DNA of 64,000 bases. Source: a virus. Lineage: Duplodnaviria; Heunggongvirae; Uroviricota; Caudoviricetes. The notes under the pieces are model-generated. The model saw only the letters and a program-made list of their open reading frames with translations. It made no database searches and was not told where the DNA came from. The translations under genes were made by a program, and so were the position numbers. Location of the stretch: positions 55,871 to 119,870 of the IMG/VR virus record IMGVR_UViG_3300011399_000002; one strand, given 5' to 3'. This document shows, in pieces, positions 39,801-63,736 of the stretch (the first letter of the stretch is position 1; the number at the start of each line of letters is the position of its first letter).

Positions 39801-40126
39801 CGCTTCACCTTCCTTAGTGCTTCATCTGCTTGATTGATTACTGATTCTGATGTGGGGCCATAAAAAGCCAGACCCATTGCCCAAGGCCACTGTATATTGC
39901 TATCGTCTTCAAAATGCTCTAAGGCTGGAGTAGCCTCTAGGGAGTAACGTTCCTCAGGATTTGCAGTAGCAGCCCTGTAAAGGAATAGGTCAGTAAACTC
40001 AGGAAACCGGGGCGCAAGGTCATCAATAGTCAAAGATACTGACTCTTCACCCGTTATATACACCTTTATAACTTCATCACTCACAGTTTTAATTTCTCTA
40101 GTGTATCCATTACAGACTTTGCACAC
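39797..40126 (-). CDS. hypothetical protein
   Basis: 109 aa, ATGA overlap. Confidence 0.4.
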   Translation of the reverse strand: MCKVCNGYTREIKTVSDEVIKVYITGEESVSLTIDDLAPRFPEFTDLFLYRAATANPEERYSLEATPALEHFEDDSNIQWPWAMGLAFYGPTSESVINQADEALRKVKR

Positions 40127-40341
40127 TACTTTACCCCTACTTCGCTTAGACAGTAGACACCGACTTTTACTTCTGCCACCCCTGAACTTCTAACTTCGAT
40201 ACAATCGGGCGCAAAGGTCCAAGGATAGGCTACAACAGAAGTAGGGGGTGGTCTAAAAAACGTAAGTAGCGCAAGCACAATAAAAATAATAACCCCAACG
40301 AGTATAACTACTAGGCAACCCCACAGGCCATCGTCACTCAT
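40126..40341 (-). CDS. small membrane protein
   Basis: LWGCLVVILVGVIIFIVLALLTFF TM helix. Confidence 0.35.
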   Translation of the reverse strand: MSDDGLWGCLVVILVGVIIFIVLALLTFFRPPPTSVVAYPWTFAPDCIEVRSSGVAEVKVGVYCLSEVGVK

Positions 40342-42688: not shown

Positions 42689-43198
42689 TTGATCCATGAG
42701 GCCCACATAACCCATGAGCAAGAGGTTTATAAACTATCCCCTATGAAAAAAGACAAAATTATTGACTATTACATATTGGTCTACAAGCCCAGCCATCCAG
42801 CAGTGGTAGGTGACGGATATGTACCAGAGCAGATATTAGTAGCAGAGAGCGAATTAGGACGCTTCCTCTATCCTGATGAATCAGTAAGGCATAAAAACGG
42901 CGATCCCCAAGATAACAGGCCCTCAAACTTAGAGGTTGTATCCGCTAGTCACGGATACAGGTTAGTTAACCTTGGTGACGAGCATATTGAGCCACGCAAG
43001 TCCGCTGGTAAAACTTTTATGCCTTGCAAATTTCAAAAACCGTGCTGGAAAGAAGTTAGAGCGCCTATAGCCCGTGAGCATAAGGTGTATCTTCCGTACA
43101 TATGCAGTTATCAGGAAGGTGGGGACGTTTACAAGTGTTCGCGCTTTTGGAGTTATGTAGATAAAACATTAGTAGAGCAAGGGAGCGATGAAAATTGA
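42689..43198 (+). CDS. HNH homing-endonuclease-like protein
   Basis: RHKNGDPQDNRPSNLEVVSASHG HNH motif; immediately upstream of RNR. Confidence 0.6.
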   Translation: MIHEAHITHEQEVYKLSPMKKDKIIDYYILVYKPSHPAVVGDGYVPEQILVAESELGRFLYPDESVRHKNGDPQDNRPSNLEVVSASHGYRLVNLGDEHIEPRKSAGKTFMPCKFQKPCWKEVRAPIAREHKVYLPYICSYQEGGDVYKCSRFWSYVDKTLVEQGSDEN

Positions 43199-50099: not shown

Positions 50100-50174
50100 G
50101 GCTCCGAACCTAAACGGACAAGGGTCTGTCTGCAAAACAGATTTTAGTGGGTTCGACTCCCACCGGAGTCTCCA
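50100..50174 (+). tRNA. tRNA-Cys (anticodon GCA)
   Basis: 75 nt, acceptor GGCTCCG/CGGAGTC, anticodon stem TCTGT/ACAGA loop CTGCAAA, T-arm GTGGG-TTCGACT-CCCAC, discriminator U, CCA. Confidence 0.65.
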
Positions 50175-50407: not shown

Positions 50408-51937
50408 ATGGCAAGATTAAACGCAACTAAGCGAACAAGGGTTACAGAAACATTAGCAGAGGAAACTACAACTAACCTAGCAGGTGGGAAGGCTTTTAAG
50501 TTAACTCCCCATGCAAAGTTAATTGAACAGGTTGTAGGTGCGTTCTGGAACGAGGATTTGTACTACGCTAAGGGCTCTAAGACTTCCGCACAGATTGTGC
50601 AGGGTGTTAAGGACGTAGCAAAGGATGATCCTAGATTCCCACTACAGCTAGCAGCATACGCTAGAAACGTTCTCTATCTGCGAACAACCCCACAGGTTTT
50701 GCTTGTGGAAGCATCACGTATTGAAGCGTGCAAGCCATTCGTTCGTGAATATACTTCAAAGATTGTAAAGCGAGCAGACGAATTAACTGATATCGTTGCT
50801 TACTACACTTCTACATCAGGCTCACACAAGGGCTTCCCTAACTCTCTAAAGAGAGGACTGGCTGATGCATTCGTGAAGTTTGATGAATACCAGTTAAATA
50901 AGTATGACTCTTCAAAGTCAGTTGTAACACTTGGTCAGGTAGCACAGTTAGTGCACCCAGCGTTGGGTAAGGCTATGTACAACTTCCTCACAAAGGATGA
51001 AGTTGATGCAGAGGCTCTTCCTAAGATTGGGGCTCTAAAGGCTCTATTGGCTAAGGATAAGATTGATGCAGAGGCTATCGAGTTAATCGGTAAGTCAAAT
51101 GTAACTTGGGAAACCCTTATCTCAAAGTTTGGGGCATCCAAGGAAACTTGGGAATTAGTAATTCCTAATATGGGTTATATGGCACTTCTTAGAAACCTAA
51201 GAAACTTCGAACAGAAGGGTGTCAATCTAACTCCTGTATTAGCACGGATTGCAAATCCTGAGGAAGTAAAGCGCTCAAAGCAACTTCCATATCGGTTCTA
51301 TTCTGCTTACCTACAGGTATCAGAACAGAAGGTGCAGCGTGCAATCGCTCAGGCGTTTGAACACAGCATTTCAAATGTCCGACTTGAAGGTCGTACAGCC
51401 GTTATGGTAGACTTGTCTGGAAGCATGGGATCAGCACTATCGGATAAGTCAGCAATGTCCTATCGAAACGTGGGTACCGTGCTTGGAGCCATCGTTGTAA
51501 AGAAGTCAGAGGAATCTGTAGCAATTGGTTTCGGTGATACCGCGCAGATTGCAAAGATCAACCCTGATGACACAATGATGACAAATATTGATAAGATTGA
51601 TAAGTTACCAGTGGGTCACTCAACTAATGCCTATCGAGGCTTCCAAGTCTTGGGCAACAGAGTAGTTGATCGTGTGGTAGTTATCTCTGATATGCAGTGC
51701 TACGGTGGTAACGAATACTACGGTAGTGGCCTATCAAACGCTTGGGATGAATACGTGAAGAACGTAAATCCAAATGCAAGACTCTACTCGCTAGATGTTA
51801 GCGCATATGGATCAAAGCAATTCCCAAGCAGAAAGAACAACGTTGTAACTCTTAACGGCTGGTCAGACAAGATCATCGATATGATTGGTGTCTACGAACG
51901 TGAAGGTGCAATGCTTGATGAGGTTAGAAAGTGGTAG
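50408..51937 (+). CDS. rsr: Ro60 ortholog Rsr (TROVE domain + vWA domain)
   Basis: N-terminal NLAGGKAFKL...VVGAFWNEDLYY matches the Rsr/Ro60 signature (NPAGG...GSxxGTYY), C-terminal vWA with MIDAS VMVDLSGSMGS; 509 aa. Confidence 0.75.
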   Translation: MARLNATKRTRVTETLAEETTTNLAGGKAFKLTPHAKLIEQVVGAFWNEDLYYAKGSKTSAQIVQGVKDVAKDDPRFPLQLAAYARNVLYLRTTPQVLLVEASRIEACKPFVREYTSKIVKRADELTDIVAYYTSTSGSHKGFPNSLKRGLADAFVKFDEYQLNKYDSSKSVVTLGQVAQLVHPALGKAMYNFLTKDEVDAEALPKIGALKALLAKDKIDAEAIELIGKSNVTWETLISKFGASKETWELVIPNMGYMALLRNLRNFEQKGVNLTPVLARIANPEEVKRSKQLPYRFYSAYLQVSEQKVQRAIAQAFEHSISNVRLEGRTAVMVDLSGSMGSALSDKSAMSYRNVGTVLGAIVVKKSEESVAIGFGDTAQIAKINPDDTMMTNIDKIDKLPVGHSTNAYRGFQVLGNRVVDRVVVISDMQCYGGNEYYGSGLSNAWDEYVKNVNPNARLYSLDVSAYGSKQFPSRKNNVVTLNGWSDKIIDMIGVYEREGAMLDEVRKW

Positions 51938-52557: not shown

Positions 52558-52700
52558 GGATAGTGTAGATAACAGTTACTTCTCTTTGGGCGACGTGATG
52601 TGGGTTCGAATCCTACTCTCCCAACAAAATCGATGGGAGATAGCTTAATGGTAAAGCGCGAAAATTTCTGTAGTCGCTTTAATCTTCCTAAAATAGTCAT
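52558..52700 (+). ncRNA. element C: Y-RNA-like RNA with tRNA-like module
   Basis: TAGTGTAGataACAGTTACTTC, then T-arm GTGGG-TTCGAAT-CCTAC, 7-bp loop-capped helix TCTCCCA/TGGGAGA, then D-arm GCTT-AATGGTA-AAGC. Confidence 0.4.
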
Positions 52701-52795: not shown

Positions 52796-52915
52796 TCTTT
52801 AGTGTAGTGTTTGTTACGGTTCCTTCGATAAATGTATATCAATTGACTTCAAATCAATCTTTGTAGGTTCAAGTCCTACAGGAATAATGTCCGTAGCGCC
52901 TCTATCCTCACTAAT
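52796..52915 (+). ncRNA. element D: Y-RNA-like RNA enclosing a tRNA-like cloverleaf (anticodon-position UCA)
   Basis: TTAGTGTAG pairs with CTA(tcct)CACTAA ~95 nt downstream; enclosed 52818-52887 folds as acceptor GGTTCCT/AGGAATA, D GATA/TATC, ATTGA-CTTCAAA-TCAAT, T-arm GTAGG-TTCAAGT-CCTAC, no CCA. Confidence 0.4.
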
Positions 52916-53381: not shown

Positions 53382-53981
53382 TTGTTAAGAATCAGTACGA
53401 GGTTAAACCTAATGTCCCTAGAGGAGAGTAGATTTACACCAGCAAGAGATTGGTGTATGCATCCTGAATATTGGCATTCTCCTGACTCAGAGGCTACCGA
53501 AATGGAAGTCACTGGGTTTTTAGGTGCTTTAGTGACAATGATACAGCCAGAGTATGTTGTTGAAACAGGAACATATCACGGGCATACGGCAGCAGCAATA
53601 GGTGCGGCACTTTATGTAAACGGTCATGGACGCTTGGTAAGCATTGAGAATAATGGTGAGCATTATGAGGAAGCTTTACATACTTTGGATGGATGGAATT
53701 ATCCAGTCAAACTCGTTCATGGCAATACGATGGATTTTGTCCCCGAACAAAACATCGATTTTGCTTTCTTTGATTCTTGGCAGGAAGGACGTATAGAAGA
53801 GTATACACGATTCTATTCTCTAGGTTTTTTGAAACCCGGAGCAATCGTAGCCTTCCATGATACCGCACCACATCATCAGGTACGAAAGACTATTCTACCC
53901 TTAGAAGGAATTGGTGAGGGCGAGTTAAGGATCATTGATTTCCGAACACCGCGAGGACTAATTTTGGGGCAAGTAAGATGA
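53382..53981 (+). CDS. class I SAM-dependent O-methyltransferase (family 3-like)
   Basis: VVETGTYHGHTAAAIGAAL motif I, FFDSW motif like catechol-type O-MTases. Confidence 0.6.
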   Translation: MLRISTRLNLMSLEESRFTPARDWCMHPEYWHSPDSEATEMEVTGFLGALVTMIQPEYVVETGTYHGHTAAAIGAALYVNGHGRLVSIENNGEHYEEALHTLDGWNYPVKLVHGNTMDFVPEQNIDFAFFDSWQEGRIEEYTRFYSLGFLKPGAIVAFHDTAPHHQVRKTILPLEGIGEGELRIIDFRTPRGLILGQVR

Positions 53982-54658
53982 CACTTACAATAGCTGTCCT
54001 ATCATGGGGATCACATAAGACACTAATAAACACATTAAACAGTTATGAAGAATACGGACTGTATAATCTAGCAGATGAACGAATCATATGGTTTCAGGAA
54101 TTCACCAAGCCTGACCTAGAGATAGCAAGAAGATACGGGTATCATGCCTACGGATCACCTACTAACATAGGGATATCCGGGGGATATAAAGGGCTTGTCC
54201 AATTAGCGACAAGCGATCTTTTTTTATTTTTAGAGAATGACTGGCTCCTAACTGAGGACCCAACACAACAGATAAAAGATGCTAAGGCTCTCATAGGATC
54301 AGGCTACGCTGACGTTGCAAGACTACGGAGCAGGAATAATCCCGGTCATCCCCTGTGGACTAAGCAGTTTGAGGGGAATGAGTTAAGCCGACCAGAGCAT
54401 CTTCTTGATTCAATCCACTGGACTAACCCGTCTAGATTCTACCAGATCAAGCCTGTACTTGGTACATGGTTTGAGACTATAGCACCATTTGCAAATTGGA
54501 CCAACAATCCAACCATGTTTAGACGTGAGTGGTTAATTGAAAACATTCTCCCTCGATTAGATGGTGATATTGAAAGAAGTATCCAGTCTTGGTGGGAGGA
54601 GCAAAGTTTCAAGGTTGTTCAAGGTGAAGGACTTTTCACTCATTGGAGATTAGATTGA
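53978..54658 (+). CDS. hypothetical protein (possible sugar-transfer enzyme)
   Basis: 226 aa, ATGA overlap, inside methyl/glycosyl-transfer cluster. Confidence 0.45.
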   Translation: MTLTIAVLSWGSHKTLINTLNSYEEYGLYNLADERIIWFQEFTKPDLEIARRYGYHAYGSPTNIGISGGYKGLVQLATSDLFLFLENDWLLTEDPTQQIKDAKALIGSGYADVARLRSRNNPGHPLWTKQFEGNELSRPEHLLDSIHWTNPSRFYQIKPVLGTWFETIAPFANWTNNPTMFRREWLIENILPRLDGDIERSIQSWWEEQSFKVVQGEGLFTHWRLD

Positions 54659-54927
54659 TGTGGATAAGGGGGAACCATAAAAACCGTTATACCAAACCTT
54701 CGTCATGGCATCTGTTTAAAGAGGCAGGACTGACTCCTAAATTCGTTAGAAGTTATCATGAAGACGGAAATACAAAATCCGTCTATGTAGCAGCAGATAC
54801 CATGAAATCAATAGATGGTTATACGTGGTGGGAAACAGAAGTACAACGAAGCGAGGAGTTACCCAAGAAAGGTAAAATCTGTGCTAGTTGCTTACAGAGG
54901 TATTTAAGTGAGAGTAGGATTCCTTAA
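54643..54927 (+). CDS. hypothetical protein
   Basis: 94 aa. Confidence 0.35.
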   Translation: MEIRLMWIRGNHKNRYTKPSSWHLFKEAGLTPKFVRSYHEDGNTKSVYVAADTMKSIDGYTWWETEVQRSEELPKKGKICASCLQRYLSESRIP

Positions 54928-55852
54928 CAACCAGATAGACAATCGGGGCACAGGCAATGCTCTGTATGACTATGCTCATTACAACGAAACTATCCTAGGT
55001 AACGAGAGTGTCATATTCACCCTGACCCACCAGAATGCAGATCAGGGAATGCAGGATAGGCTAGTAGATAGGTTTGGAGACATTTGGTCTGTTTGGGCAT
55101 TAGTAGAAAGAGAGTTAAACATAGACTTTATCTATCATATCAAGTACGGAAATATGGACGGGTTCCATATGGGCGAAACTCCCTATGGTGTCCATGCTGT
55201 CTTTGATGGTAGTCAGCCTCATGGAGACAGGTATGCAACAATCTCTGAGTATATGGGTAGGAAGTATAAGATTCCTTACGTTCCCCATATTGTAAGTCTA
55301 GCAGAACCAACACAGGACTTTAGAGCAAAGTACGATATACCGCAAGATGCTTACATATATGGAAGGCACGGTGGAGCGGATACTTTCGATATCCCGTGGG
55401 CATGGGATGCTATCAACGAGGCTATGTACTATGACGATAGCCTTTATTTCATGTTCATGAATACGGAGATACCAAATGTCAAATTCTTCGATCCAAGTAG
55501 ACTTACCTTCATCGCTAATTCAGCGAATCCAGCATTTAAAAGTTCGTTTATACATTCGACAGATGCAATGCTCCATGCTCGATCTAGAGGTGAAACTTTT
55601 GGAATTGCAGTTGGCGAATTTGCAATTGCAGGAAAGCCTGTCATCACTTACGGAGGCAGCGGAGAAAGGGCGCACCTAGATTACCTAGGTAGAAACGCTA
55701 TCAAGTATTGGACTAAGACAGACCTATACATAGAGTTGCTAAGAAAGCCCAAGCCATACATGAACGACTTAACAGACTATGCAAACTTCACACCGGAGAA
55801 CGTGATGAAAAAGTTTAAGGAGGTATTTCTAGATGAGGCAAATTCACCTTAG
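54908..55852 (+). CDS. hypothetical protein (cluster member)
   Basis: 314 aa. Confidence 0.45.
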   Translation: MRVGFLNNQIDNRGTGNALYDYAHYNETILGNESVIFTLTHQNADQGMQDRLVDRFGDIWSVWALVERELNIDFIYHIKYGNMDGFHMGETPYGVHAVFDGSQPHGDRYATISEYMGRKYKIPYVPHIVSLAEPTQDFRAKYDIPQDAYIYGRHGGADTFDIPWAWDAINEAMYYDDSLYFMFMNTEIPNVKFFDPSRLTFIANSANPAFKSSFIHSTDAMLHARSRGETFGIAVGEFAIAGKPVITYGGSGERAHLDYLGRNAIKYWTKTDLYIELLRKPKPYMNDLTDYANFTPENVMKKFKEVFLDEANSP

Positions 55853-56459
55853 AGGTATCCCCTTTTATCTGCATGACAGCGGTGATTTATTATCTGGCGC
55901 AATAGAGAGAAATGGAGACTTTTGGGAAGCAGATATCCTAGACTACATACGGGATAATCATCCAGAGCATATGTCAATATTGGACATAGGTGCTAACATA
56001 GGTAATCATTCTGTCTACTTTGCAAACTTTCTAAAGTATGCATCTATCATGTGCTTTGAGCCCGAAACTCTAAACTACGATGTTCTAACAAACAACATGA
56101 GTGGCTATTCTAATATAGGATTGGCTAAGTTTGCTGTATCTGATAAAACCGGAACGGCAGCGTTCATACGAAATGGGGATAATTTTGGGGCACATAGAAT
56201 TAACGATCAAGGTGATGAAATAGTAAAAACTATCTCTATCGATAAAATAGCGTTGGGCCATGTTACGCTGATGAAGATTGACGTTGAGGGCCACGAACCA
56301 GCGGTTCTAGATGGAGCAACAGATACCATCATACGATGCAAGCCGCTTATCCTGATAGAAGACTGGGATTTAGAGTATCATAGAATCCTTAGTCCTCTTG
56401 GATACGAGATAGAGAAAGATTGGGAGCATCATAAGACTTACCTTTGGAGGCCAGTATGA
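55833..56459 (+). CDS. FkbM-family methyltransferase
   Basis: ILDIGANIGNHSVYFA motif. Confidence 0.6.
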   Translation: MRQIHLRGIPFYLHDSGDLLSGAIERNGDFWEADILDYIRDNHPEHMSILDIGANIGNHSVYFANFLKYASIMCFEPETLNYDVLTNNMSGYSNIGLAKFAVSDKTGTAAFIRNGDNFGAHRINDQGDEIVKTISIDKIALGHVTLMKIDVEGHEPAVLDGATDTIIRCKPLILIEDWDLEYHRILSPLGYEIEKDWEHHKTYLWRPV

Positions 56460-57100
56460 TATATTTCATAGCAGCCGTATATAACGAAGAGCAAGAGATA
56501 CACGAATTAGTTGATCATGTTAGTCATCTTGTAGGTGGCTATCGTTTTGTCGATGATGGGTCTACAGACAACACTCTAGCCCTTTTAGCGGAAAATGAGT
56601 ACGCATATGACGGTGCATATGACTTTGATTATAAATCAATTCCTCATACGGGACTACCCGAAACCGTTAAGCACGAAGCAAAGGAAATGGTTCCAGACGG
56701 CGCGTGGATACTGATGCTGGACGCTGATGAAAGGCTCTCAGACGACGCACAAGCGGGCATAGAGGGCTTCTTTGGCTCAGGTGAGGCGGATGCCTACGAC
56801 TACGTTTACTTTAACCAGTACGAGATAATAGATGGGGTTCATGTTCGTGGATTCCAAAAGTGTAAACTCTTCCGAAAGGAGAGTATACAGTTTCCATTGA
56901 ATAATATTCATGCCGATGATCAATTCACTGGAAGGGGAACCTTCAAAGAGGATTGGGTGGTATTCCACCGCAAGACAACGTACAAGCAGATTAATCGGGA
57001 ACAAGAGTACCTAGAAACCTACAAGAAACTACTTGAAGATGGTCACATCGACCAAGGCAGGTACGACTGGCTTCGCGGACTACATCATTTTATTAGGTAG
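56444..57100 (+). CDS. family 2 glycosyltransferase
   Basis: YNEEQEI ... DDGSTDNT ... LDADERL (DXD). Confidence 0.6.
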   Translation: MEASMIYFIAAVYNEEQEIHELVDHVSHLVGGYRFVDDGSTDNTLALLAENEYAYDGAYDFDYKSIPHTGLPETVKHEAKEMVPDGAWILMLDADERLSDDAQAGIEGFFGSGEADAYDYVYFNQYEIIDGVHVRGFQKCKLFRKESIQFPLNNIHADDQFTGRGTFKEDWVVFHRKTTYKQINREQEYLETYKKLLEDGHIDQGRYDWLRGLHHFIR

Positions 57101-57112
57101 GTTGAACTTCAT

Positions 57113-57730
57113 ATGAACAACAAGGTAGAATTAATAGACTGCTATGGCTCGGATGAACGACACGCCCTAGCAGCGTGGACAAGTACATCACGGGACCTTA
57201 CACCGGAGAAGAGGGAAAGAATACCGGGCCTTTTAAAGATGCTAGCAGAGAACGACCATACGACTCCTTTTGAAAAGAGTTTCATTGGTTTTCTTGTTAC
57301 GTGTGATACAGCAAGTCACATTCATATCTTGAAGCACAGGATAGGTGTGTCTGTCAATGGAGAGTCTGCACGGTACAAGGAGTTAAAGGACGATAAGTTT
57401 TACGTCCCCGAAGACTGGCCCGCTGAGTTAAAAAATGATTTAAATACTGATATTATGTATGCGTTTGATAAGTATCATAACGCTTTGCATCTCCTTGATA
57501 AGGAAGGAATTCCTAGAAAGCGCGCAAAGGAGACAGCAAGATTCTATCTCCCTTATGCTAATCAGGTAACACTAGATGTTACATTTAACTTTAACTCATT
57601 CAAGCACTTCCTAAAGAAGCGCTATGAGCCAGATGCACAGAAAGAAATATACGATATCGCTGATGAAATGCTAAGACTCGTTAGAGCAACAGGTCAATTT
57701 GAACATTCACTTAATGCATGGGGATTGTGA
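57113..57730 (+). CDS. thyX: flavin-dependent thymidylate synthase ThyX-like protein
   Basis: ThyX signature KHRIGVSVNGESARY (RHRx7-8S...RY), 205 aa. Confidence 0.65.
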   Translation: MNNKVELIDCYGSDERHALAAWTSTSRDLTPEKRERIPGLLKMLAENDHTTPFEKSFIGFLVTCDTASHIHILKHRIGVSVNGESARYKELKDDKFYVPEDWPAELKNDLNTDIMYAFDKYHNALHLLDKEGIPRKRAKETARFYLPYANQVTLDVTFNFNSFKHFLKKRYEPDAQKEIYDIADEMLRLVRATGQFEHSLNAWGL

Positions 57731-58035
57731 TGGACGTAAGGTTTGGACTTCAAGTAGCCACTATGAAAATGTTTAATAGCATAAGTGAGGAGCAGGGTAA
57801 GAGAGAGATAGAAAGTTATCTTGCTTGGCTAGACTGCACGCCTAAGGAAGAAGCAATTTTATTGGGGCTTCCTACTGAGGTATTTACTCAACTTGGTAAA
57901 GCCAAGTTTTCAAATGCAGCGTTTGGCGTCTTTGAAACCAACTTCCAAACATACATGGAAAAGATGCTGACTGCTCTAAGAAACGGGGTCATAGAAGGCT
58001 TAGACTTTGATTCAGGAAATACAATAAATGGATAA
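57718..58035 (+). CDS. hypothetical protein
   Basis: 105 aa, ATGA-type overlap with thyX. Confidence 0.4.
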   Translation: MGIVMDVRFGLQVATMKMFNSISEEQGKREIESYLAWLDCTPKEEAILLGLPTEVFTQLGKAKFSNAAFGVFETNFQTYMEKMLTALRNGVIEGLDFDSGNTING

Positions 58036-58088
58036 AGAAGATTGCGGTTGTTGTGGGCCAGATTGTGAAATGTGCTTCATGACCGAGA

Positions 58089-58307
58089 ATGATAATTTTG
58101 AGGAAGATGATCCAGATGCTCAGGAAGATAACAACGAGGGTTAGAAATATCGCCCGAAAGGCTTTTATGTTGCCCGGTAGTATAGTGGTATCTAGATTAG
58201 AAGGTCGTATTGTGTCCATAAACGATGGACCAGAGTTAGGAGAATATAAAGAAGCTAAAGCAGATCAGGAGTATCCAGAGATATTCTATGATCCGCACCT
58301 AATGTAA
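58089..58307 (+). CDS. hypothetical protein
   Basis: 72 aa, ends 1 nt before tRNA. Confidence 0.3.
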   Translation: MIILRKMIQMLRKITTRVRNIARKAFMLPGSIVVSRLEGRIVSINDGPELGEYKEAKADQEYPEIFYDPHLM

Positions 58308-58382
58308 GCCCGATTCGTATAATGGCGATTATGCTTCCGTTACATGAAAGCGACGGCAGTTCGATTCTGTCATCGGGTACCA
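58308..58382 (+). tRNA. tRNA (tentatively Val, anticodon UAC)
   Basis: Acceptor GCCCGAT/ATCGGGT, T-arm GGCAG-TTCGATT-CTGTC, CCA; anticodon arm imperfect so isotype uncertain. Confidence 0.5.
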
Positions 58383-58395
58383 AGAATTAAATAAT

Positions 58396-58472
58396 GGCCC
58401 ACGATTCATCTGGTCGAGGAAGACGTTCTTATAAAGCGTTTGAGCAGAGTCCGATTCTCTGGTGGGCTACCA
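58396..58472 (+). tRNA. tRNA-Ile (anticodon UAU), second copy of this anticodon
   Basis: Acceptor GGCCCAC/GTGGGCT, anticodon stem ACGTT/AGCGT loop CTTATAA, T-arm CAGAG-TCCGATT-CTCTG, CCA. Confidence 0.55.
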
Positions 58473-58474
58473 TC

Positions 58475-58550
58475 GCCGCTGTAGTATAATGGCTCATTAC
58501 AAGTGTTTTGTACTCACTAAATGGGGGTTCGATTCCTCTCAGCGGCTCCA
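58475..58550 (+). tRNA. tRNA-Thr (anticodon UGU)
   Basis: Perfect acceptor GCCGCTG/CAGCGGC, anticodon loop TTTGTAC, T-arm GGGGG-TTCGATT-CCTCT, CCA. Confidence 0.6.
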
Positions 58551-58568
58551 ATAACTTGTCAGGAAATA

Positions 58569-58590
58569 GGACCCGAAAGGGTCTTTTTTT
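58569..58590 (+). terminator. rho-independent terminator after tRNA trio
   Basis: GGACCC-gaaa-GGGTC followed by TTTTTTT. Confidence 0.7.
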
Positions 58591-58659
58591 ATGTCCTAAG
58601 GAAGTAATACAATACTGCAAGGAGAATATTATCGAATAAAATACAAGGGAGGTCATTAA

Positions 58660-59250
58660 ATGCCAGCAACATTCTCATGGGTACAGTACACAGGTTCCTC
58701 AGGTAACTCAACAACACCAGCCGGTTCAGGTGTAACTGCAACATCATCATCTAACTCAATGTCTTGGGACTTTGAAGTAGCAGACAGCACAGGTACAGTA
58801 ACATATACAGCTAACCCAGTTAGTGCCGGTAGTGCTTCTTATCCACTATGGATAAAGGGTCTATGGACTAACTCAGTTGCCTATACTGTTTCTAACCTAA
58901 AGTTTTGGCAGTTCAACCCAGCAGCATCTTCTGCTAACACAGCATCATTTACAATCTTTGGTGCTACACAAACTGCCTATTCAATTGCTACAGGAACAGC
59001 AACAGGAGCAGTCTATGCTTCTAACGTAGCAGTACCAACAAGTACGTCAAGTACAGGATCACCGGGCGCTCCAGTTACAGGTCTAGGTTCTTACGCTACA
59101 TCAGGCGCAGGATCGGGAGTAAATGGAACAGGAGCATCAGGTATCGCAACTCCGGGCGGATGGCTTGGACTACAGTTAAGTGCCGCAGCAGCAGCACCGG
59201 CTGGAACAACAGGCTACTTTGGATTTACACTACAGTACGACGAACAATAA
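58660..59250 (+). CDS. Ser/Thr/Gly/Ala-rich protein (putative virion/surface protein)
   Basis: Strong RBS GGGAGG; 196 aa low-complexity S/T/G/A composition, aromatic C-terminus GYFGFTLQYDEQ. Confidence 0.5.
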   Translation: MPATFSWVQYTGSSGNSTTPAGSGVTATSSSNSMSWDFEVADSTGTVTYTANPVSAGSASYPLWIKGLWTNSVAYTVSNLKFWQFNPAASSANTASFTIFGATQTAYSIATGTATGAVYASNVAVPTSTSSTGSPGAPVTGLGSYATSGAGSGVNGTGASGIATPGGWLGLQLSAAAAAPAGTTGYFGFTLQYDEQ

Positions 59251-59306
59251 AGAGGTTGAACCTCTAGAGGGTGATCTGATATGATTAGATATCAGGTAGG
59301 GAGGAT

Positions 59307-59627
59307 ATGCGTATGGAAGTAATTTTAGCATTCATTGCCGCTGTATTTGCTCCCTTGTCATCCACATTAATCTTAGCCGTTATAATCGGCGGTTTATTTC
59401 ATGGTGCCTTATATAACTGGAAGTTAAATATTCCAAAGTCTTTCGTATCCCACCAATTAACAGCAGGTATAGCTTTCCTCTCAACCCTATTCATCTTTAG
59501 AAGTTTGACTGCGGTGTTTGAAGGTACTGCACTGGTTAGTCCTGCTGGATGGATAGGAATAGCTATACTGTGGTCTATATTCTGTTTATTTATATGGGTA
59601 GGGCACTCAGCAAGAAGAAGAAAATAG
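59307..59627 (+). CDS. integral membrane protein
   Basis: Three to four TM helices, basic C-end RRRK. Confidence 0.45.
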   Translation: MRMEVILAFIAAVFAPLSSTLILAVIIGGLFHGALYNWKLNIPKSFVSHQLTAGIAFLSTLFIFRSLTAVFEGTALVSPAGWIGIAILWSIFCLFIWVGHSARRRK

Positions 59628-59738
59628 GTCTACCAGATTAAATGTCTCACACCTATAAAGTCTGTATGAAGGAGTAGATAGTACAGGCATCATTGAAACG
59701 TTTGCTAGAATGCAATCTAGCGTAGTAAGGAGTAATAA

Positions 59739-61223
59739 ATGGGTAAGGTTCAGGGCGTAAATGTCGTTGTTGGTATTCCATCATTCGGCATGGTAAGTAC
59801 ATATTTTATGCAATCCCACTCAGCAATGGCATTCCCTCTTGTATCAAGTAAGATTGACAAGATCGTGTTAAACAAACCCATTGCAGAAGCGCGCAACGAA
59901 ATCGTTGAATTCGCACTCTCACAAGGAGCGCAGTATATATTTTGGTTGGATGATGATGTAGTATCACCGCCAGATAGTTTCATGAAGTTATATAGACATA
60001 ATAAGGACATTATCAATGGCGTTTATTGGTCAAAGTCTAACCCTCCCATGCCCCTTCTGTTCAGAGGGCACCTTGAAGGTCCCTATTGGAATTGGCACAT
60101 CGGGGACCTCATCGAAATCGATGCGGCTGGTTCTGGACTTACGCTCGTCAAAACTGATGTGTACAGAAAGATGCAGCAAGAATTGGGAGGCCCTTGGTAC
60201 TCAACTGAGTACGTATCCTTTGCTGGAATAGAAACTTCTGATAGTCCTCCTAATAATACGGAGGACTTGTATTTCTATGCTAAGGCCAAGAAAGCTGGCT
60301 ACAAGGTTTGGGCAGATACTAGTGTTCAGGCTTGGCATTATGATAAGCACTCACAAGCAATGTTTGGTATAACACCAAACTCTCCGCAAGCATTTCCTAG
60401 ATGGGCAGAGGTTAAGCCTGAGGGCAGTCTGCTCATTGCAGACCTTGGTAGCGGTCCTACAACACCCTACATGCGCGATGAAGGCGTCACAGTATCCTTT
60501 GATATACGTGAGGAAGTTAAGCCTGACGTAGTATGCGATCTTCGCTATATTCCTGTACCCGATCAAACATTTGATATCGTCTTTTCTTCCCACACACTTG
60601 AACACTTCGGCTGGACCGGAGTGGATAAGGTGCTAAAGGAATGGGCTAGAATATTGAAGGTTGGAGGGGAATTAAGAATTGTTGTTCCTAATATTCGCTG
60701 GTCAGCAAAGAGGCTCTATGAGGATAGAGCAACAGCACTAGACCTACAAGTATTATACGGGGAGCAAGACTACCCTAAAAACTTTCATGGTGTAGGATTT
60801 ACACCAAACATGCTAAAGGCTCTAGTAGAGTCCTTAGGAATCTTTGAGAATATCGAGACTCATGAGGGTGATCTAGAAGGTAATCCGGGTCCTGATAGTT
60901 GGAATCTTCTCTTGAAGGCAACTAAGAAAGAACACCCAATGATCGAGAACATCACACCAGATTACGTCGATCCTGCCCCAACAGCAGAGAATTGGTGGCC
61001 GATCATGCAGGATCAAGCATATGAAGTACGACCCATAACCGATGAAGAGATTGAAGCCGATTTTAAGGCTCAACTTCCAGCACCAAAGACACTAGAAACT
61101 AGAGCATTAAAGAAGGACATAATCGAACAAATTAAAACTAAGGGAGCATTTGACTTCTCAGTCTTTAATGCAACTACAGTAGCGGAACAGGAGAAGGCAG
61201 ATGGGCTGGATAGCGATAACTAA
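59739..61223 (+). CDS. bifunctional glycosyltransferase / SAM-methyltransferase fusion
   Basis: N-terminal GT-like region (VVGIPSFGM ... WLDDDV), C-terminal MTase motif I LIADLGSGPTTP and SHTLEHF. Confidence 0.55.
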   Translation: MGKVQGVNVVVGIPSFGMVSTYFMQSHSAMAFPLVSSKIDKIVLNKPIAEARNEIVEFALSQGAQYIFWLDDDVVSPPDSFMKLYRHNKDIINGVYWSKSNPPMPLLFRGHLEGPYWNWHIGDLIEIDAAGSGLTLVKTDVYRKMQQELGGPWYSTEYVSFAGIETSDSPPNNTEDLYFYAKAKKAGYKVWADTSVQAWHYDKHSQAMFGITPNSPQAFPRWAEVKPEGSLLIADLGSGPTTPYMRDEGVTVSFDIREEVKPDVVCDLRYIPVPDQTFDIVFSSHTLEHFGWTGVDKVLKEWARILKVGGELRIVVPNIRWSAKRLYEDRATALDLQVLYGEQDYPKNFHGVGFTPNMLKALVESLGIFENIETHEGDLEGNPGPDSWNLLLKATKKEHPMIENITPDYVDPAPTAENWWPIMQDQAYEVRPITDEEIEADFKAQLPAPKTLETRALKKDIIEQIKTKGAFDFSVFNATTVAEQEKADGLDSDN

Positions 61224-61722
61224 AGATTACGAGATACTACGAGAAGATGAAGGTATTCATGGTCGTCCTGTAGCAGCGGGTGAGGAGGGAAATCTCCTTG
61301 TCATCGCTCAGGAAGACTTCGGACATAATGTTGCTGTTGATTTAGTTAATGGTATCATTGCAATAGACTATAAAAGTCTAGGTGTTCAAAACAACACGAT
61401 TGAACTCGATGGTGGAGTCCTAAGATTTCTAATCTGCGATGAAACAAATATCGTAGGCCAGTTTAGACACCTAGAACAAAAACTTGAATACCTACGTGAC
61501 GATAATGGAAGAAGGATTATCGGGGAAGATGGGCGGTTCCAACAGGTTAGAACAGACATTCTTCACCCCTTGATCTGGCGTCCAATCTGGTTTACGAGAT
61601 TAACAAATGGTGTTCCCACGAAGGTTATCGGGGCGCAGGTAACATTGCCCCGTGATCAAGGTGGAAAGAACGTTAAGAAGATGGTAAGCCTATTTGTCGA
61701 TGGGCAAATAGGCATAGATTAA
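61201..61722 (+). CDS. hypothetical protein
   Basis: 173 aa, overlaps upstream stop. Confidence 0.45.
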   Translation: MGWIAITKDYEILREDEGIHGRPVAAGEEGNLLVIAQEDFGHNVAVDLVNGIIAIDYKSLGVQNNTIELDGGVLRFLICDETNIVGQFRHLEQKLEYLRDDNGRRIIGEDGRFQQVRTDILHPLIWRPIWFTRLTNGVPTKVIGAQVTLPRDQGGKNVKKMVSLFVDGQIGID

Positions 61723-61736
61723 AGGGGATGGAATGA

Positions 61737-63101
61737 TTGAGGTTTTTAGTAATATTACTAGCATTTCTAATACTAGTACCAGTAGGTGCAACAGCGTTTG
61801 CTGCTCCTCCTAATCCATGTATAAAGAATCCTAGTCATCCAAAGTGTCCTAAACCAACACCTACGGCAACAATTAGACCAACACCTACTGCAACTCCCGT
61901 AGTAACACCAACACCTGTTCCTACGATAGCACCAACGCCAACTCCGACACCAATTGCTACATCAACCCCAACAATTACTCCTACACCTACTGTGGCACCG
62001 ACTCCAACTCCTACAGTAACCCCTACGCCAATACCAACTATTGCACCAACACCAAGTCCTACAGCAACTCCAATACCGGCTGGTCCTTTTGCACCACCAG
62101 TAACAACTGGAACATTTACGCTTCCAGCAACGGCTGATACTGCATCAGAGATTAACTCATTTATTGCAGGTATTCCAAATGGTTCGATTGTTGAGTTTAG
62201 ACCTGAGGTTGCTTATTCCCTTGATACGGGACTGCTACTAGCAGGACGAAATAATCTTGTTCTTGATGGTAATAGCGCAACACTCACCATGAATGGTACA
62301 ACAGGTAATGATGAGGCTGACTCAACATTCCTGCTGCGTGGATCATCACATATTAGGATCGTTGATTTCACGGTTCATGGAGATTACGCAACCTTTCCCG
62401 GTCAGGCTGGAGAAGTAGCACACCTAATTGGATTATCTGGATGGTACGGAGGGGGACCTTCCAGTTATATAGAAATGTCTAATGTAACCGGGGATGGATT
62501 CTTTGGTGACTTTGCTTACCTAGAAGGCGAGAATGTAGGCACACAGCGCCCATCAACAAACGTTTGGATTCATCACAATAATCTAACCACCGTAGGTAGA
62601 AATGGTGTATCGCTGATTAACGTAACTGATGTTCTCATCGAGAACAATACGATGACTAGAGCAGCGTACCACATGATTGATTTTGAGCCTAACTTTGATG
62701 CAGAGGAAGTACGTAGAGTAGTTATTAGAGATAACACCTTTGGCTCTTACGCTCATAGATCAGGTTTAATCGGATTCTTTGTTTCATTCTATTCACCTAA
62801 CAACCCACAGGGCTCAGACTTCACCATCGAAAACAACACGGTGGCTGGAATTGCCGCAAATGGGTATGACGGAACAGCAAGATCGCTTAATTCATCCTTT
62901 GTAGGAAAGAGCGCAAACAAATTAGTCAATGTAGTATTCAAGAATAACAGTACATCACGTACCGTATCAGGCTATGGTATTCTCTACTTCAATTGGATAA
63001 CTGGAGTTACTGTAACTGGAAATACTCAACCAGTACAGTCAGGAAGTACCCTAGTAGTAGTGAGTAATTCAACGAATGTAGTATCATCACCAAACCCCTA
63101 G
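61737..63101 (+). CDS. secreted PT-linker / right-handed beta-helix protein (tailspike or depolymerase-like)
   Basis: Signal peptide, ~80-aa (P-T-P-T-x)n linker, then NxT/NN-rich beta-helix-like repeats ([27 protein letters not shown]). Confidence 0.55.
61845..62085 (+). repeat. PT-repeat coding microsatellite-like region
   Basis: Reiterated CCAACACCTACT / ACTCCTACA codons encoding TPTPT(V/I)APTPTP. Confidence 0.5.
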
Positions 63102-63112
63102 GGGAGATAGAT

Positions 63113-63736
63113 TTGAAAAGTATTTTCATTAGGTCGTTATTTATACTGTTAGCAATGCTTGCATTGGCTTTACCAATAAGCGCTGCCAAGCCGATAGGTT
63201 CTGGTGGCGACCCACTTACTATTGAGACAGATCGTAGATCAATTTCATGTAATGTTGAACAACAAACTATTCGTTGGTACGGATCATTTGATCCAATTGC
63301 TCCTTGTCCGGGTCCAAATGTTGTTAACAACTCTACTGGGTGTGGATGGGATATTGATGATAGTTGGTCTATGCGAGGTTCAGGACGAGCCAGCGATATT
63401 CATACTGCAAGTCTGTGCGTCGTGTCTGACGGGACACACAGAGCCCCTGTTGATGTTTCGGTTAGGGCTAAGAACGATCAACTTCTCGTAAGGCTTGATG
63501 CCTCTGATGGAAGATCGTGGTCTGCATCACCTATTCGTGATGGTAACGAATATCAGTATGTTGCTTGTGGAGATAATTTCATTAGTGCCCCGCACCCTGA
63601 AATTCTTGGGACTAATGGCGGGCACGGAACAATTGTAACCTATACCTTGACTATCGATGCTTCGGCGCGAGCCAGTAATGTGACTGCACTACTAAAGTAT
63701 GGAAACGGTATTTGGGTTGTCGAGGAATGTGAATAA
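63113..63736 (+). CDS. secreted hypothetical protein
   Basis: Signal peptide MKSIFIRSLFILLAMLALALPISAAKP, 4 Cys. Confidence 0.45.
   Translation: MKSIFIRSLFILLAMLALALPISAAKPIGSGGDPLTIETDRRSISCNVEQQTIRWYGSFDPIAPCPGPNVVNNSTGCGWDIDDSWSMRGSGRASDIHTASLCVVSDGTHRAPVDVSVRAKNDQLLVRLDASDGRSWSASPIRDGNEYQYVACGDNFISAPHPEILGTNGGHGTIVTYTLTIDASARASNVTALLKYGNGIWVVEECE

What the first reader, a model, noticed from the sequence alone, without database searches (positions are those of the whole stretch)
53382..61223. Methyltransferase and glycosyltransferase cluster with ThyX, next to a strongly expressed Ser/Thr-rich protein
An O-methyltransferase, FkbM-type MTase, GT2 glycosyltransferase, two unknown enzymes and a ThyX-like protein are co-directional (53382-57730). 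After the tRNA trio come an S/T/G/A-rich protein behind a GGGAGG RBS and a GT-MTase fusion. Two readings are plausible. One is glycosylation or methylation of the S/T-rich virion or surface protein. The other is DNA base hypermodification, since ThyX homologs and sugar transferases co-occur in such pathways and dCMP deaminase and kinase are also encoded. Either would be a notable trait.
Basis: inference. Interest (0 to 1): 0.55.

Follow-up and report, generated by a model that had tools for sequence, protein, structure and literature searches.

The report
Phage glycan-coat module with carrier protein
An uncultivated ~120-kb phage carries a conserved set of four sugar-transferases and three methyl-transferases linked to a small, highly expressed Ser/Thr-rich protein of a previously undescribed head-associated family; it most likely coats the virion with methylated sugars rather than modifying the DNA.

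Summary
Window 53382-61223 encodes a tightly packed operon: a TylF/catechol-type O-methyltransferase, a divergent GT-A, a GT4-like GT-B, an FkbM methyltransferase, a GT2 and ThyX. Three tRNAs and a strong terminator follow. Next come a 196-aa protein (J, 30% Ser+Thr) behind an AAGGGAGG ribosome-binding site, a GT-methyltransferase fusion (L) and a coupled 173-aa beta protein (M).

New evidence:
- The block is syntenic in at least 8 related viral contigs.
- J belongs to a small family with no Pfam, PHROG, PDB or cultured-phage match. Only 24 clusters were found among 1.84 billion representatives.
- In distant relatives the J gene lies 0.5-4.7 kb downstream of the major capsid gene.
- In at least five further lineages J is again adjacent to L-like GT/MT genes or to large GT/MT clusters.
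- J has the best codon match to the phage's own tRNAs of 27 genes tested.

ThyX keeps nearly all catalytic residues. Relatives carry a distant ThyX subtype at the same locus, so it behaves as an ordinary dTMP synthase. I found no ThyA-type hydroxymethylase or hydroxylase and no C5-methyltransferase motif.

Verdict: probable virion-protein glycosylation and sugar-methylation system with a dedicated carrier protein, a new variant of a known kind. DNA hypermodification is unlikely. No glycan has been shown.

The parts
53382..53981 (+). A: class I SAM O-methyltransferase (TylF / catechol-OMT type)
   Evidence: Pfam Methyltransf_24 at 1.5e-10 and Methyltransf_3 at 9e-8, both above cut-off. Present in relatives L003 and L006, absent in L002, L004 and L005. 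The gene caller starts it at 53412.
53978..54658 (+). B: probable divergent GT-A glycosyltransferase
   Evidence: No Pfam hit for the window copy. Three of 6 orthologues hit Glycos_transf_2 weakly (E 0.07). About 12 of 120 homologues carry PF00535. FLFLENDW and a C-terminal His are invariant. No PDB sequence hit. Conserved in 5 relatives.
54643..54927 (+). C: small basic ORF, not conserved
   Evidence: No Pfam or PHROG hit and no tblastn match in relatives.
54908..55852 (+). D: probable GT-B (GT4-like) glycosyltransferase
   Evidence: Weak Glycos_transf_1 hit (E 0.009). PHROG 2170 glycosyltransferase at 1e-4. Invariant E229-x7-E237 in GETFGIAVGE. Weak PDB profile hits to glycosyltransferases.
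55833..56459 (+). E: FkbM-family methyltransferase
   Evidence: Pfam Methyltransf_21 at 1.1e-12. PHROG 8156 at 2e-30.
56444..57100 (+). F: GT2 (GT-A) glycosyltransferase
   Evidence: Pfam Glycos_transf_2 at 1.1e-7 and Glyco_tranf_2_4. Invariant DDGSTD and LDADE (DxD) motifs. The most widely kept upstream gene, present in all 6 relatives.
57113..57730 (+). G: ThyX flavin-dependent thymidylate synthase, embedded in the operon and probably a bystander
   Evidence: Pfam Thy1 at 1.3e-32. Full-length alignment to T. maritima ThyX. The equivalents of H53, H79, R80, S88, R90, Y91, R147 and R174 are kept, while R78 and H59 are replaced by Lys. Sister phages carry a 30%-identical canonical subtype at the same locus.
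57718..58307 (+). H and I: small ORFs of unknown function
   Evidence: No family hits. Poorly conserved.
58308..58550 (+). tRNA-Val(TAC, relaxed call), tRNA-Ile(TAT), tRNA-Thr(TGT)
   Evidence: ARAGORN calls. Rfam confirms Thr. ACA makes up 79% of J's Thr codons and GTA 7 of 12 Val codons.
58568..58592 (+). Intrinsic terminator separating the upstream operon and tRNAs from J
   Evidence: A 7-bp GC-rich stem, GAAA loop and T7 run.
58660..59250 (+). J: Ser/Thr-rich all-beta protein, proposed glycan-carrier virion protein (new family)
   Evidence: AAGGGAGG ribosome-binding site. 30% Ser+Thr; 41 of 59 S/T positions are S or T in at least 90% of 32 orthologues. 167 homologues, none named. Only 24 clusters among 1.84e9 representatives. 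No Pfam, PHROG, PDB or INPHARED hit. Highest match to phage tRNAs, 37.8% against 13-26%. Remote relatives sit next to MCP genes and GT/MT genes.
59307..59627 (+). K: small predicted membrane protein, optional
   Evidence: Hydrophobic 106-aa ORF behind GGGAGG. No family hit. Absent between J and L in L002 and L006.
59739..61223 (+). L: GT-A (Anp1/GT62-GT2-like) + Methyltransf_11 fusion, proposed J-specific glycosyl- and methyl-transferase
   Evidence: Pfam Anp1 at 1e-9, Methyltransf_11 at 3e-11 and Methyltransf_8. Invariant WLDDDV and IADxGxG/SSHTLEHF motifs. PDB hits only for the MT domain. Follows J in every relative and in the remote lineages L014, L015 and L022/23; split into separate genes in L020/21.
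61201..61722 (+). M: 173-aa all-beta protein translationally coupled to L, function unknown
61737..63101 (+). N: signal-like N-terminus + Pro/Thr linker + right-handed beta-helix (variable cassette; possible spike/depolymerase and possible alternative glycan acceptor)
   Evidence: Pfam Beta_helix at 6e-7 and PHROG tail spike at 8e-8. Not conserved in sequence, but relative L008 has an fn3 + beta-helix protein in the same slot.

Best explanation
The region encodes a phage-borne protein-glycosylation system with a dedicated acceptor protein.

J is a small, very highly expressed, all-beta, Ser/Thr-rich protein of a new family. Its relatives are encoded in head-morphogenesis modules just downstream of the major capsid protein. 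It is therefore most likely an accessory virion-surface protein: a capsid decoration is most probable, and a tail-tube or fibre role is not excluded.

J has no signal peptide, so the reaction would take place in the cytoplasm. There, the GT-A domain of L would attach sugar to hydroxyl groups of J's Ser/Thr-rich loops, drawing on host NDP-sugar pools, and L's C-terminal SAM-methyltransferase domain would O-methylate the sugar. The upstream operon (GT-A B, GT4-like D, GT2 F, O-methyltransferases A and E) would extend and further methylate the glycan. Its gene content varies between sister phages, which would diversify the glycan. M, coupled to L, is an unknown beta-sandwich partner, possibly carbohydrate-binding or an adaptor. 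ThyX sits in the operon but simply makes dTMP.

Shown:
- domain identities and catalytic motifs;
- synteny of the block;
- the J-L-M linkage;
- adjacency of J-family genes to capsid genes;
- expression signals for J.

Inferred:
- that J is in the virion;
- that J is the acceptor;
- O-linkage and the order of the enzymes;
- the benefit to the phage. By analogy with mycobacteriophages this would be shielding or altered surface properties of the virion.
For: (1) Enzymology. There are four GT-type and three MT-type domains of families that typically act on sugars, with catalytic motifs invariant across relatives. None is a membrane or polyprenol-linked GT.

(2) Synteny. Ro60 ... B, D, (E), F, ThyX, J, L, M is conserved in at least 8 related viral contigs. 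J (62-89% identity) and L (60-72%) are the best conserved.

(3) J is a real family. hhalign of the J clade against the remote group gives probability 99.6% and E 7e-24, end to end.

(4) The J-L linkage survives deep divergence.
- L015: J-like (34% identity) is followed by an L-like fusion (43% identity) and an M-like gene.
- L014 shows the same start of the arrangement.
- L022/23: three J paralogues, then an L-like gene (39% identity).
- L020/21: at least 7 GT and 4 MT genes abut a J-like gene, followed by 2 MT11 genes and an L-GT-like gene.
- L044-46 and L050: MCP, then GT2, then J. L040: GT2, MCP, J, J, GT2. L068: L-like genes upstream of J.

(5) Head association. A J-like gene lies 0.5-4.7 kb downstream of a recognised major head protein in L019 (phrog_752, 2e-29), in L024 and its near-identical copies L025 and L066 (phrog_2522, 1e-59), and in 9 more IMG/VR loci.

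(6) Expression. J has its own terminator-bounded unit and a strong Shine-Dalgarno site. It has the highest share of codons read by phage tRNAs among 27 genes, and tRNA-Thr(TGT) and tRNA-Val(TAC) lie just upstream.

(7) Surface-protein traits. Ser/Thr richness (17-34%) and Lys/Arg paucity are family-wide. 41 of 59 S/T positions are conserved. One loop (residues ~140-170) is hypervariable with indels. One relative has an inserted lectin-like domain.

(8) Precedents.
- Cluster O mycobacteriophages have an O-methyltransferase followed by three GT genes that modify capsid and tail-tube proteins (Freeman 2023, as cited in PMC11600133).
- PBCV-1 A064R is a GT-GT-methyltransferase fusion that builds methylated capsid glycans (PMC7826918).
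Against: - There is no direct evidence that J is a virion component or is glycosylated.
- In this clade J is not near a capsid gene. No structural gene was recognised among the roughly 30 larger ORFs profile-scanned in the 58 kb upstream (about 23 smaller ORFs were not scanned), and none was recognised within about 22 kb downstream in relative L013.
- Several J-family lineages show no GT within the available flanks (L019, L024/25). Ser/Thr content does not differ clearly between GT-linked and GT-less members.
- The upstream operon is separated from J by ThyX, small ORFs, tRNAs and a terminator.
- No NDP-sugar biosynthesis gene lies in the window's cluster.
- GT/MT detection in the 31 extra loci used only my own HMMs, so counts are lower bounds and not a controlled enrichment test.
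Confidence: 0.5

Rival explanations
1. The GT/MT enzymes build a glycan on a different acceptor, and J is merely an unmodified, abundant structural protein encoded nearby. Candidate acceptors are other virion proteins (the giant Ser/Thr-rich fibre-like proteins, or the Pro/Thr linker of beta-helix protein N) or host envelope polysaccharide (superinfection exclusion or receptor masking).
For: - N carries a ~75-aa Pro/Thr linker of the kind that is O-glycosylated in some bacteria, according to general knowledge.
- The giant proteins downstream are 17-22% Ser+Thr.
- F has a weak hit to GtrB-like O-antigen conversion proteins.
- A small membrane protein, K, sits between J and L.
- Remote GT-only relatives of L occur without a J-like gene (L038, L039).
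Against: - N and K are not conserved, whereas J-L-M is.
- No GT here has membrane segments or polyprenol-phosphate GT signatures, and there is no flippase or polymerase.
- J-L adjacency recurs in lineages that lack the N/K/giant arrangement.
Confidence: 0.25
2. DNA base hypermodification. A thymidylate-synthase-like enzyme supplies a reactive base, which the glycosyltransferases decorate and the methyltransferases further modify, protecting the genome from restriction.
For: - GT-A and GT-B enzymes related to LPS and teichoic-acid enzymes are known to glycosylate phage DNA, and thymidylate-synthase homologues next to GTs are used as a marker of such pathways (bioRxiv 10.1101/2023.12.21.572611; PMC13326640).
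- ThyX lies inside the operon.
- The window's ThyX is an atypical subtype (KHR for RHR, FEK for FEH).
- dCMP deaminase and dNMP kinase are encoded.
- About 56 kb of the genome was not seen.
Against: - The known precursor enzymes belong to the ThyA family or are C5-MT + TET. A ThyA probe found nothing (best E 0.35) and no C5-MT motif IV was found in the window.
- ThyX is an unrelated fold and keeps the H53, H79, R80, S88, R90, Y91, R147 and R174 equivalents.
- Sister phages with the same GT/MT genes carry a canonical ThyX only 30% identical, as expected for a housekeeping enzyme.
- The MTs are of the TylF, FkbM and Methyltransf_11 types, not DNA MTs.
- The GT-MT fusion tracks J, not ThyX, in remote lineages.
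- dCMP deaminase + ThyX is the canonical dTMP route.
Confidence: 0.06
3. The cluster makes a free methylated oligosaccharide, glycolipid or small-molecule glycoside during infection (an auxiliary metabolic or host-takeover function) that is unrelated to virion structure.
For: - FkbM, TylF and Methyltransf_11 families are common in natural-product and glycolipid pathways, according to general knowledge of those families.
- The phage carries many metabolic genes: NAMPT, PRPP synthetase, IMPDH.
Against: - No aglycone or lipid-carrier biosynthesis genes were found.
- Linkage to J and M is persistent, and in relatives extends to head modules.
Confidence: 0.05

Closest known systems
Mycobacteriophage virion glycosylation (clusters O, F, C2; Freeman et al. 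2023, Cell Host Microbe 31:1216, as cited in PMC11600133)
   Same: A phage-encoded O-methyltransferase gene followed by tandem glycosyltransferase genes. The targets are abundant virion surface proteins. The reaction is cytoplasmic and uses host sugar donors.
   Different: - There the acceptors are the major capsid and tail-tube proteins themselves. Here the candidate is a separate small protein of a new family.
- Here there is an additional dedicated GT-MT fusion plus a coupled partner (M).
- The host is not known to be an actinobacterium.
- Homology of the enzymes to the mycobacteriophage ones was not tested.
- No glycan has been demonstrated.
Chlorovirus PBCV-1 A064R (GT-GT-methyltransferase) and capsid Vp54 glycosylation (PMC7826918; Speciale 2020 PNAS)
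   Same: A virus-encoded multidomain protein that fuses glycosyltransferase and sugar O-methyltransferase activities and acts on a capsid protein independently of host glycosylation machinery.
   Different: - It is a eukaryotic giant virus with N-linked glycans on the major capsid protein.
- It has three domains rather than two.
- No sequence relationship was shown here.
Phage DNA sugar hypermodification clusters (T4 glucosyl-hmC; arabinosyl-5hoC in RB69/DLP3, PMC13326640; MT/5mYOX-dependent GTs, bioRxiv 10.1101/2023.12.21.572611)
   Same: GT-A and GT-B enzymes clustered in a phage genome near a thymidylate-synthase-type gene and nucleotide-metabolism genes.
   Different: - Those pathways need a ThyA-family hydroxymethylase or hydroxylase, or C5-MT + TET. 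Here the enzyme is a near-canonical ThyX and none of those was found.
- Three sugar-type O-methyltransferases and the J/M partners have no counterpart in DNA pathways.
Phage head decoration / auxiliary capsid proteins (for example lambda gpD, T4 Hoc/Soc, phage L Dec)
   Same: Small, abundant beta-rich proteins, often encoded next to the capsid gene and tolerant of inserted display domains.
   Different: - No sequence or reliable fold similarity of J to any of them.
- In this clade J is encoded far from any capsid gene.

Membership tests
Phage-encoded virion protein glycosylation system (mycobacteriophage type) | Clustered phage-encoded glycosyltransferases, with an O-methyltransferase | tested here: met
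   Four GT-type and three MT-type domains lie in 53382-61223.
Phage-encoded virion protein glycosylation system (mycobacteriophage type) | The acceptor is a virion structural protein | tested here: inconclusive
   J-family genes lie next to MCP genes in remote relatives. In this clade no structural gene was recognised near J in the sequence examined. No proteomics is available.
Phage-encoded virion protein glycosylation system (mycobacteriophage type) | Glycans are physically attached to the protein | not testable with these tools
   Needs mass spectrometry or glycan staining.
Phage-encoded virion protein glycosylation system (mycobacteriophage type) | Enzymes homologous to the characterised mycobacteriophage GTs/OMT | not tested
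   No mycobacteriophage appeared among tblastn hits of L in INPHARED. A-F were not compared directly.
DNA sugar-hypermodification gene cluster | An enzyme that creates a reactive base: ThyA-family dNMP hydroxymethylase/hydroxylase, or C5-cytosine MT + TET/JBP dioxygenase | tested here: not met
No PCxxFS/ENV motif was found. No such Pfam or PHROG hit appeared among about 45 ORFs scanned. Caveats: about 23 small ORFs were not profile-scanned, and about 56 kb of the genome was not seen.
DNA sugar-hypermodification gene cluster | Non-canonical nucleoside in virion DNA | not testable with these tools
   Needs LC-MS, restriction profiling or modification-aware long reads.
ThyX (Pfam Thy1) flavin-dependent thymidylate synthase | Full-length Thy1 domain above Pfam cut-off | tested here: met
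   113.6 bits against a cut-off of 24.8, covering profile positions 1-187 of 191.
ThyX (Pfam Thy1) flavin-dependent thymidylate synthase | ThyX motif RHRxxSxxxxSxRY and other substrate-binding Arg/His residues | tested here: inconclusive
   KHRIGVSVNGESARY: the first Arg is replaced by Lys and there is a one-residue insertion. The H53, H79, R80, S88, R90, Y91, R147 and R174 equivalents are kept, and H59 is replaced by Lys. The same variant occurs in L012.
GT2 (GT-A) glycosyltransferases | Pfam Glycos_transf_2 above cut-off and a DxD motif | tested here: met
   F scores 32.3 bits against a cut-off of 23.3 and has an invariant LDADE motif. B reaches only sub-threshold hits.
GT4-like GT-B glycosyltransferases | Glycos_transf_1 domain and E-x7-E motif | tested here: inconclusive
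   D scores 15.9 bits, below the cut-off of 26.4. The E-x7-E motif is invariant.
FkbM methyltransferases | Pfam Methyltransf_21 above cut-off | tested here: met
   E scores 48.9 bits against a cut-off of 22.7.
Head decoration proteins | Sequence or fold similarity to a known decoration protein | tested here: not met

The most novel reading that the evidence does not exclude
J defines a previously unrecognised, widespread family of phage head-associated 'glycan carrier' proteins. Together with a dedicated GT-methyltransferase (L) and partner M, plus an exchangeable cassette of further GTs and MTs, it forms a modular system that gives uncultivated phages well outside the Actinobacteria a methylated glycan coat. 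The cassette is diversified between sister phages much as O-antigen loci are.
Probability: 0.4. Interest if true: 0.7.

Novelty: new variant of a known kind. Interest (0 to 1): 0.56.

Why it matters
Glycosylated phage virions have been shown experimentally almost only in mycobacteriophages, where the glycans blunt antibody recognition. A conserved, portable carrier-protein-plus-enzyme module in environmental phages would have three consequences:
- Virion glycan coats would be more widespread than known, and genetically modular.
- It would offer a compact system (J + L, with or without M) that can be tested by co-expression and possibly used to glyco-engineer phage particles.
- It would assign a role to a protein family that is currently invisible to Pfam, PHROGs and the PDB.

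The analysis also cautions against reading every 'thymidylate synthase next to GT' arrangement as DNA hypermodification.

Tried and rejected
- DNA search against cultured phages found only tRNA matches. tblastn of J and of two remote J relatives against INPHARED found nothing. L matched only weak GT or MT pieces in cyanophages and metagenomic phages.
- PDB sequence and profile searches for J (both profiles), B and M found nothing meaningful; D gave only weak GT-B hits.
- hhalign of B against F and L showed no relationship.
- M folded well but has no informative structural neighbour in the PDB or BFVD. AFDB50 was unavailable.
- Walking downstream in a relative to find the capsid module found two giant proteins and then methyltransferases, with no structural module within about 22 kb. 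I stopped walking.
- The 'dehydrogenase' at 40338-41390 was checked as a possible NDP-sugar enzyme. It is an IMP dehydrogenase.
- Host assignment from MAG labels is contradictory: Flavobacteriaceae versus Coriobacteriia.
- One script failed on a wrong file name.
- The Freeman 2023 paper is not held in the library, so it is cited through PMC11600133.

Full report
**Setting**

The window is part of a large phage-like genome.
- It encodes exonuclease, dCMP deaminase, dNMP kinase and clamp loader; NAMPT and PRPP synthetase; IMP dehydrogenase; class II RNR, primase, PolA, an SPFH protein and a Ro60/TROVE protein.
- It encodes at least 11 tRNAs.
- The same sequence occurs on a 119,888-bp ENA contig.
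- No cultured phage is related at the DNA level. PolA is under 31% identical to any INPHARED record.

**Check of the observation**

- Genes A to H (53382-58035) overlap or abut, so they form one operon.
- A is a Methyltransf_24/Methyltransf_3 O-methyltransferase, E is FkbM and F is GT2.
- G is a full-length Thy1/ThyX (E 1.3e-32).
- The two 'unknown enzymes' are probably further glycosyltransferases.
  - B has an invariant FLFLENDW motif. Sub-threshold Glycos_transf_2 hits occur in 3 of 6 orthologues, and PF00535 is recorded for about a tenth of 120 homologues.
  - D has a weak Glycos_transf_1 hit, a PHROG glycosyltransferase hit and an invariant E-x7-E motif.
- After ThyX come small ORFs and three tRNAs: Val(TAC) at a relaxed threshold only, Ile(TAT) and Thr(TGT).
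- A strong intrinsic terminator follows at 58568-58585. J starts 8 nt after AAGGGAGG.
- J is 30% Ser+Thr and 59% S/T/G/A, with only 1% Lys+Arg.
- L is a two-domain protein. The GT-A domain (Anp1/GT2-like) has an invariant WLDDDV motif. The Methyltransf_11 domain has invariant IADxGxG and SSHTLEHF motifs.
- M overlaps the end of L by 23 nt.

**Conservation**

- Searches with J and L in IMG/VR, and one GTDB hit, gave at least 8 distinct related contigs of 24-120 kb.
- All share the order Ro60 ... (A), B, D, (E), F, ThyX, J, (K), L, M.
- J (62-89% identity) and L (60-72%) are the best-conserved members.
- A and E are missing in some relatives. L005 has a different upstream set that includes a sugar-nucleotidyltransferase-like gene.
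- The slot after M holds unrelated beta-helix proteins in different phages. One or two giant proteins of 1,569-1,727 aa follow, with no family match.

**What J is**

- J has 167 homologues in the 5.8-billion-protein set, all unnamed.
- It matches only 24 clusters at E < 1e-3 among 1.84 billion representatives.
- It has no Pfam, PHROG, PDB or cultured-phage match.
- Members are stand-alone proteins of 160-215 aa. They share an N-terminal MAATFxW strand, NPIxAGxNSY(P/E)VWL, KFW and LQL motifs, and a C-terminal QYDE(S/Q) at the very end.
- Profile-profile comparison of the close clade with the remote group gives 99.6% probability, end to end.
- Ser/Thr richness (17-34%) and Lys/Arg paucity are family traits. 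41 of J's 59 Ser/Thr positions stay Ser or Thr in at least 90% of orthologues. One loop (~140-170) is hypervariable with indels.

**Genomic company of J-family genes**

This is the main new evidence.

(a) Capsid genes.
- L019 has the order major head protein (SU10_MCP; phrog_752 at 2e-29), a 103-aa gene, then J-like.
- L024, with near-identical copies L025 and L066, has MuF-like, head protease, major head protein (phrog_2522 at 1e-59), a 224-aa gene, then J-like.
- Among 31 further IMG/VR loci, 10 have a homologue of one of these two capsid proteins 0.5-4.7 kb upstream on the same strand. Only these two MCP types could be probed, so this is a lower bound.

(b) Sugar enzymes.
- L015: a J-like gene (34% identity) is directly followed by an L-like GT-MT fusion (43% identity, E 9e-122). 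After an HNH insertion comes an M-like gene.
- L014 shows the same start of the arrangement.
- L022/23 has three tandem J paralogues followed by an L-like gene.
- L020/21 has a run of at least 7 GT and 4 MT genes abutting a J-like gene that carries an inserted lectin-like domain. Two Methyltransf_11 genes and a separate L-GT-like gene follow.
- L044-46 and L050 have a GT2 between the capsid gene and J. L040 has GT2, MCP, J, J, GT2. L068 has L-like genes upstream of J.

Some lineages (L019, L024/25) show no GT in the flanks available. J therefore seems primarily a structural head-module protein that has repeatedly acquired, or kept, dedicated sugar enzymes.

**Expression**

- J is its own terminator-bounded unit with a consensus Shine-Dalgarno site.
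- 37.8% of its codons are read by exact-match phage tRNAs, against 13-26% for 26 other genes.
- Its Thr codons are 79% ACA, and tRNA-Thr(TGT) lies immediately upstream.

**ThyX and the DNA reading**

- G aligns over its full length with T. maritima ThyX. It keeps the equivalents of H53, H79, R80, S88, R90, Y91, R147 and R174. R78 and H59 are replaced by Lys.
- Four sister phages with the same GT/MT genes carry a canonical RHR ThyX at the same locus. It is only 30% identical to G, while the flanking genes are 50-70% identical. L012 shares the window's subtype. That is the behaviour of an exchangeable housekeeping gene, not of a co-evolving pathway member.
- The known sugar hypermodifications start from ThyA-family enzymes (5hm-pyrimidines; 5-hydroxy-dCMP, PMC13326640) or from C5-MT + 5mYOX (bioRxiv 10.1101/2023.12.21.572611).
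- A ThyA probe and a C5-MT motif search were negative in the window and relatives.
- The three MT domains are of small-molecule or sugar types.
- dCMP deaminase + ThyX + dNMP kinase + RNR is the ordinary dTTP route.
- Limits: about 23 small ORFs were not profile-scanned, and about 56 kb of the genome was not available.

**M**

- M has 286 homologues, confined to these phages.
- It gives a confident all-beta model (pLDDT 91).
- Its role is open. Carbohydrate binding or an adaptor function are guesses.

**Mechanism proposed**

The proposed steps:
- J is made in large amounts late in infection.
- In the cytoplasm the GT-A domain of L glycosylates Ser/Thr-rich loops of J, and its MT domain methylates the sugar.
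- B, D and F extend the glycan. A and E add further O-methyl groups.
- The variable enzyme set diversifies the glycan between phages.
- The modified J is displayed on the virion, most probably on the head.

Status of the claims:
- The domain identities, motifs, synteny, gene linkages and expression signals are shown.
- The acceptor identity, the linkage type, the enzyme order and the virion location are inferred.
- Confidence is about 0.5.

Rivals:
- another acceptor, either other virion proteins such as the Pro/Thr-linker beta-helix protein or the giant proteins, or host envelope glycans (0.25);
- DNA hypermodification (0.06);
- a free glycoconjugate (0.05).

**Comparison with known systems**

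- It works most like mycobacteriophage virion glycosylation, where an O-methyltransferase and tandem GTs modify capsid and tail-tube proteins (Freeman 2023, via PMC11600133).
- In the GT-MT fusion it resembles PBCV-1 A064R (PMC7826918).
- It differs in having a separate dedicated carrier-protein family, a conserved J-L-M core and no demonstrated glycan.
- Membership in the 'virion glycosylation' kind is met for the enzyme features, inconclusive for the virion acceptor and untestable for the glycan.
- Membership in 'DNA hypermodification clusters' fails on the defining precursor enzyme.

**Verdict**

- The feature is real, conserved and non-random.
The second is unlikely.
- It is a new variant of a known kind.
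- Interest is moderate (0.56): it is not revolutionary, but it provides a compact hypothesis that is directly testable, and it defines a new protein family.

Noticed in passing
window 50408-51937 and 52596-52657: A Ro60/TROVE + vWA protein (Pfam TROVE 1.5e-35) is followed by a tRNA array and a weak YrlA (Y RNA-like) Rfam hit (27 bits, below the gathering score of 69, E 0.025). This may be a phage-encoded Ro60/Y-RNA pair. The Ro60 gene is conserved at this position in all relatives.
   Followed up: partly
window 52818-52887: A 70-nt tRNA with anticodon TCA. ARAGORN labels it 'SeC'; Rfam calls it a plain tRNA at 49 bits. It could be an opal-suppressor tRNA, although the ORFs in the window read normally in table 11.
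   Followed up: no
window 57113-57730; L003 8754-9419, L006 8746-9423, L012 6605-7240: The ThyX gene at the same locus comes in two distant subtypes among sister phages. One is short, with KHR/FEK (window and L012, 62% identical to each other). The other is canonical RHR (30% identical to the window). Neighbouring genes are 50-70% identical, so this looks like an in-situ xenologous replacement.
   Followed up: partly
window 61737-63101 and 63113-63736: N has a signal-peptide-like N-terminus, a ~75-aa Pro/Thr linker and a right-handed beta-helix. O also starts with a signal-like segment. Neither is conserved, but relative L008 (11870-14002) has an unrelated fn3 + beta-helix protein in the same slot, so this is a variable spike or depolymerase cassette. 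Signal-like N-termini are unusual for virion spikes.
   Followed up: partly
L010 15223-20406 (just beyond window end, starts at about window 63882); L006 12703-17760; L013 6245-15831: One or two giant proteins (1,569-1,727 aa, 17-22% Ser+Thr) contain repeated 'AQAQ.IK' segments between beta-rich domains. They have no Pfam or PHROG match. In L013 they are followed by methyltransferases, including DNA MTases, rather than by a classical structural module.
   Followed up: partly
window 50100-50171 and 58308-58382: Two tRNAs are missed by default ARAGORN. One is found by Rfam at 50.5 bits, and relaxed ARAGORN calls it Cys(GCA). The other is tRNA-Val(TAC), found only at a relaxed ARAGORN threshold. 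Conversely, ARAGORN's tRNA-Ile(TAT) at 58396-58472 was not reported by Rfam at E <= 0.1.
   Followed up: partly
window 37471-41390 (- strand): An auxiliary metabolic block: IMP dehydrogenase/GMP-reductase-like protein without CBS domains (40338-41390, E 1.6e-84 to PDB IMPDHs), NAMPT (38316-39800), PRPP synthetase (37471-38319), a dual-specificity phosphatase (36945-37478) and a Methyltransf_11-like MT (36316-36969, the same PHROG as the MT domain of L).
   Followed up: partly
L022 1877-5128; L040 9436-10498; L020 10001-11125: J-family genes occur as tandem paralogue arrays: three in L022/23 and two in L040. In one case (P0262) an L-type-lectin-like domain is inserted after the N-terminal strand. 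This is the behaviour expected of a surface display scaffold.
   Followed up: partly
L012 (CAZRNW010000003.1) and P0364: MAG labels for relatives disagree: 'uncultured Flavobacteriaceae' versus 'Coriobacteriia'. The host is therefore unknown. Strong Shine-Dalgarno sites throughout the window argue against a Bacteroidota host.
   Followed up: no
window 42689-43198: An HNH homing-type endonuclease gene lies immediately upstream of, and overlapping, the class II ribonucleotide reductase gene. Another HNH gene interrupts the L-M pair in remote relative L015 (2894-3349).
   Followed up: no
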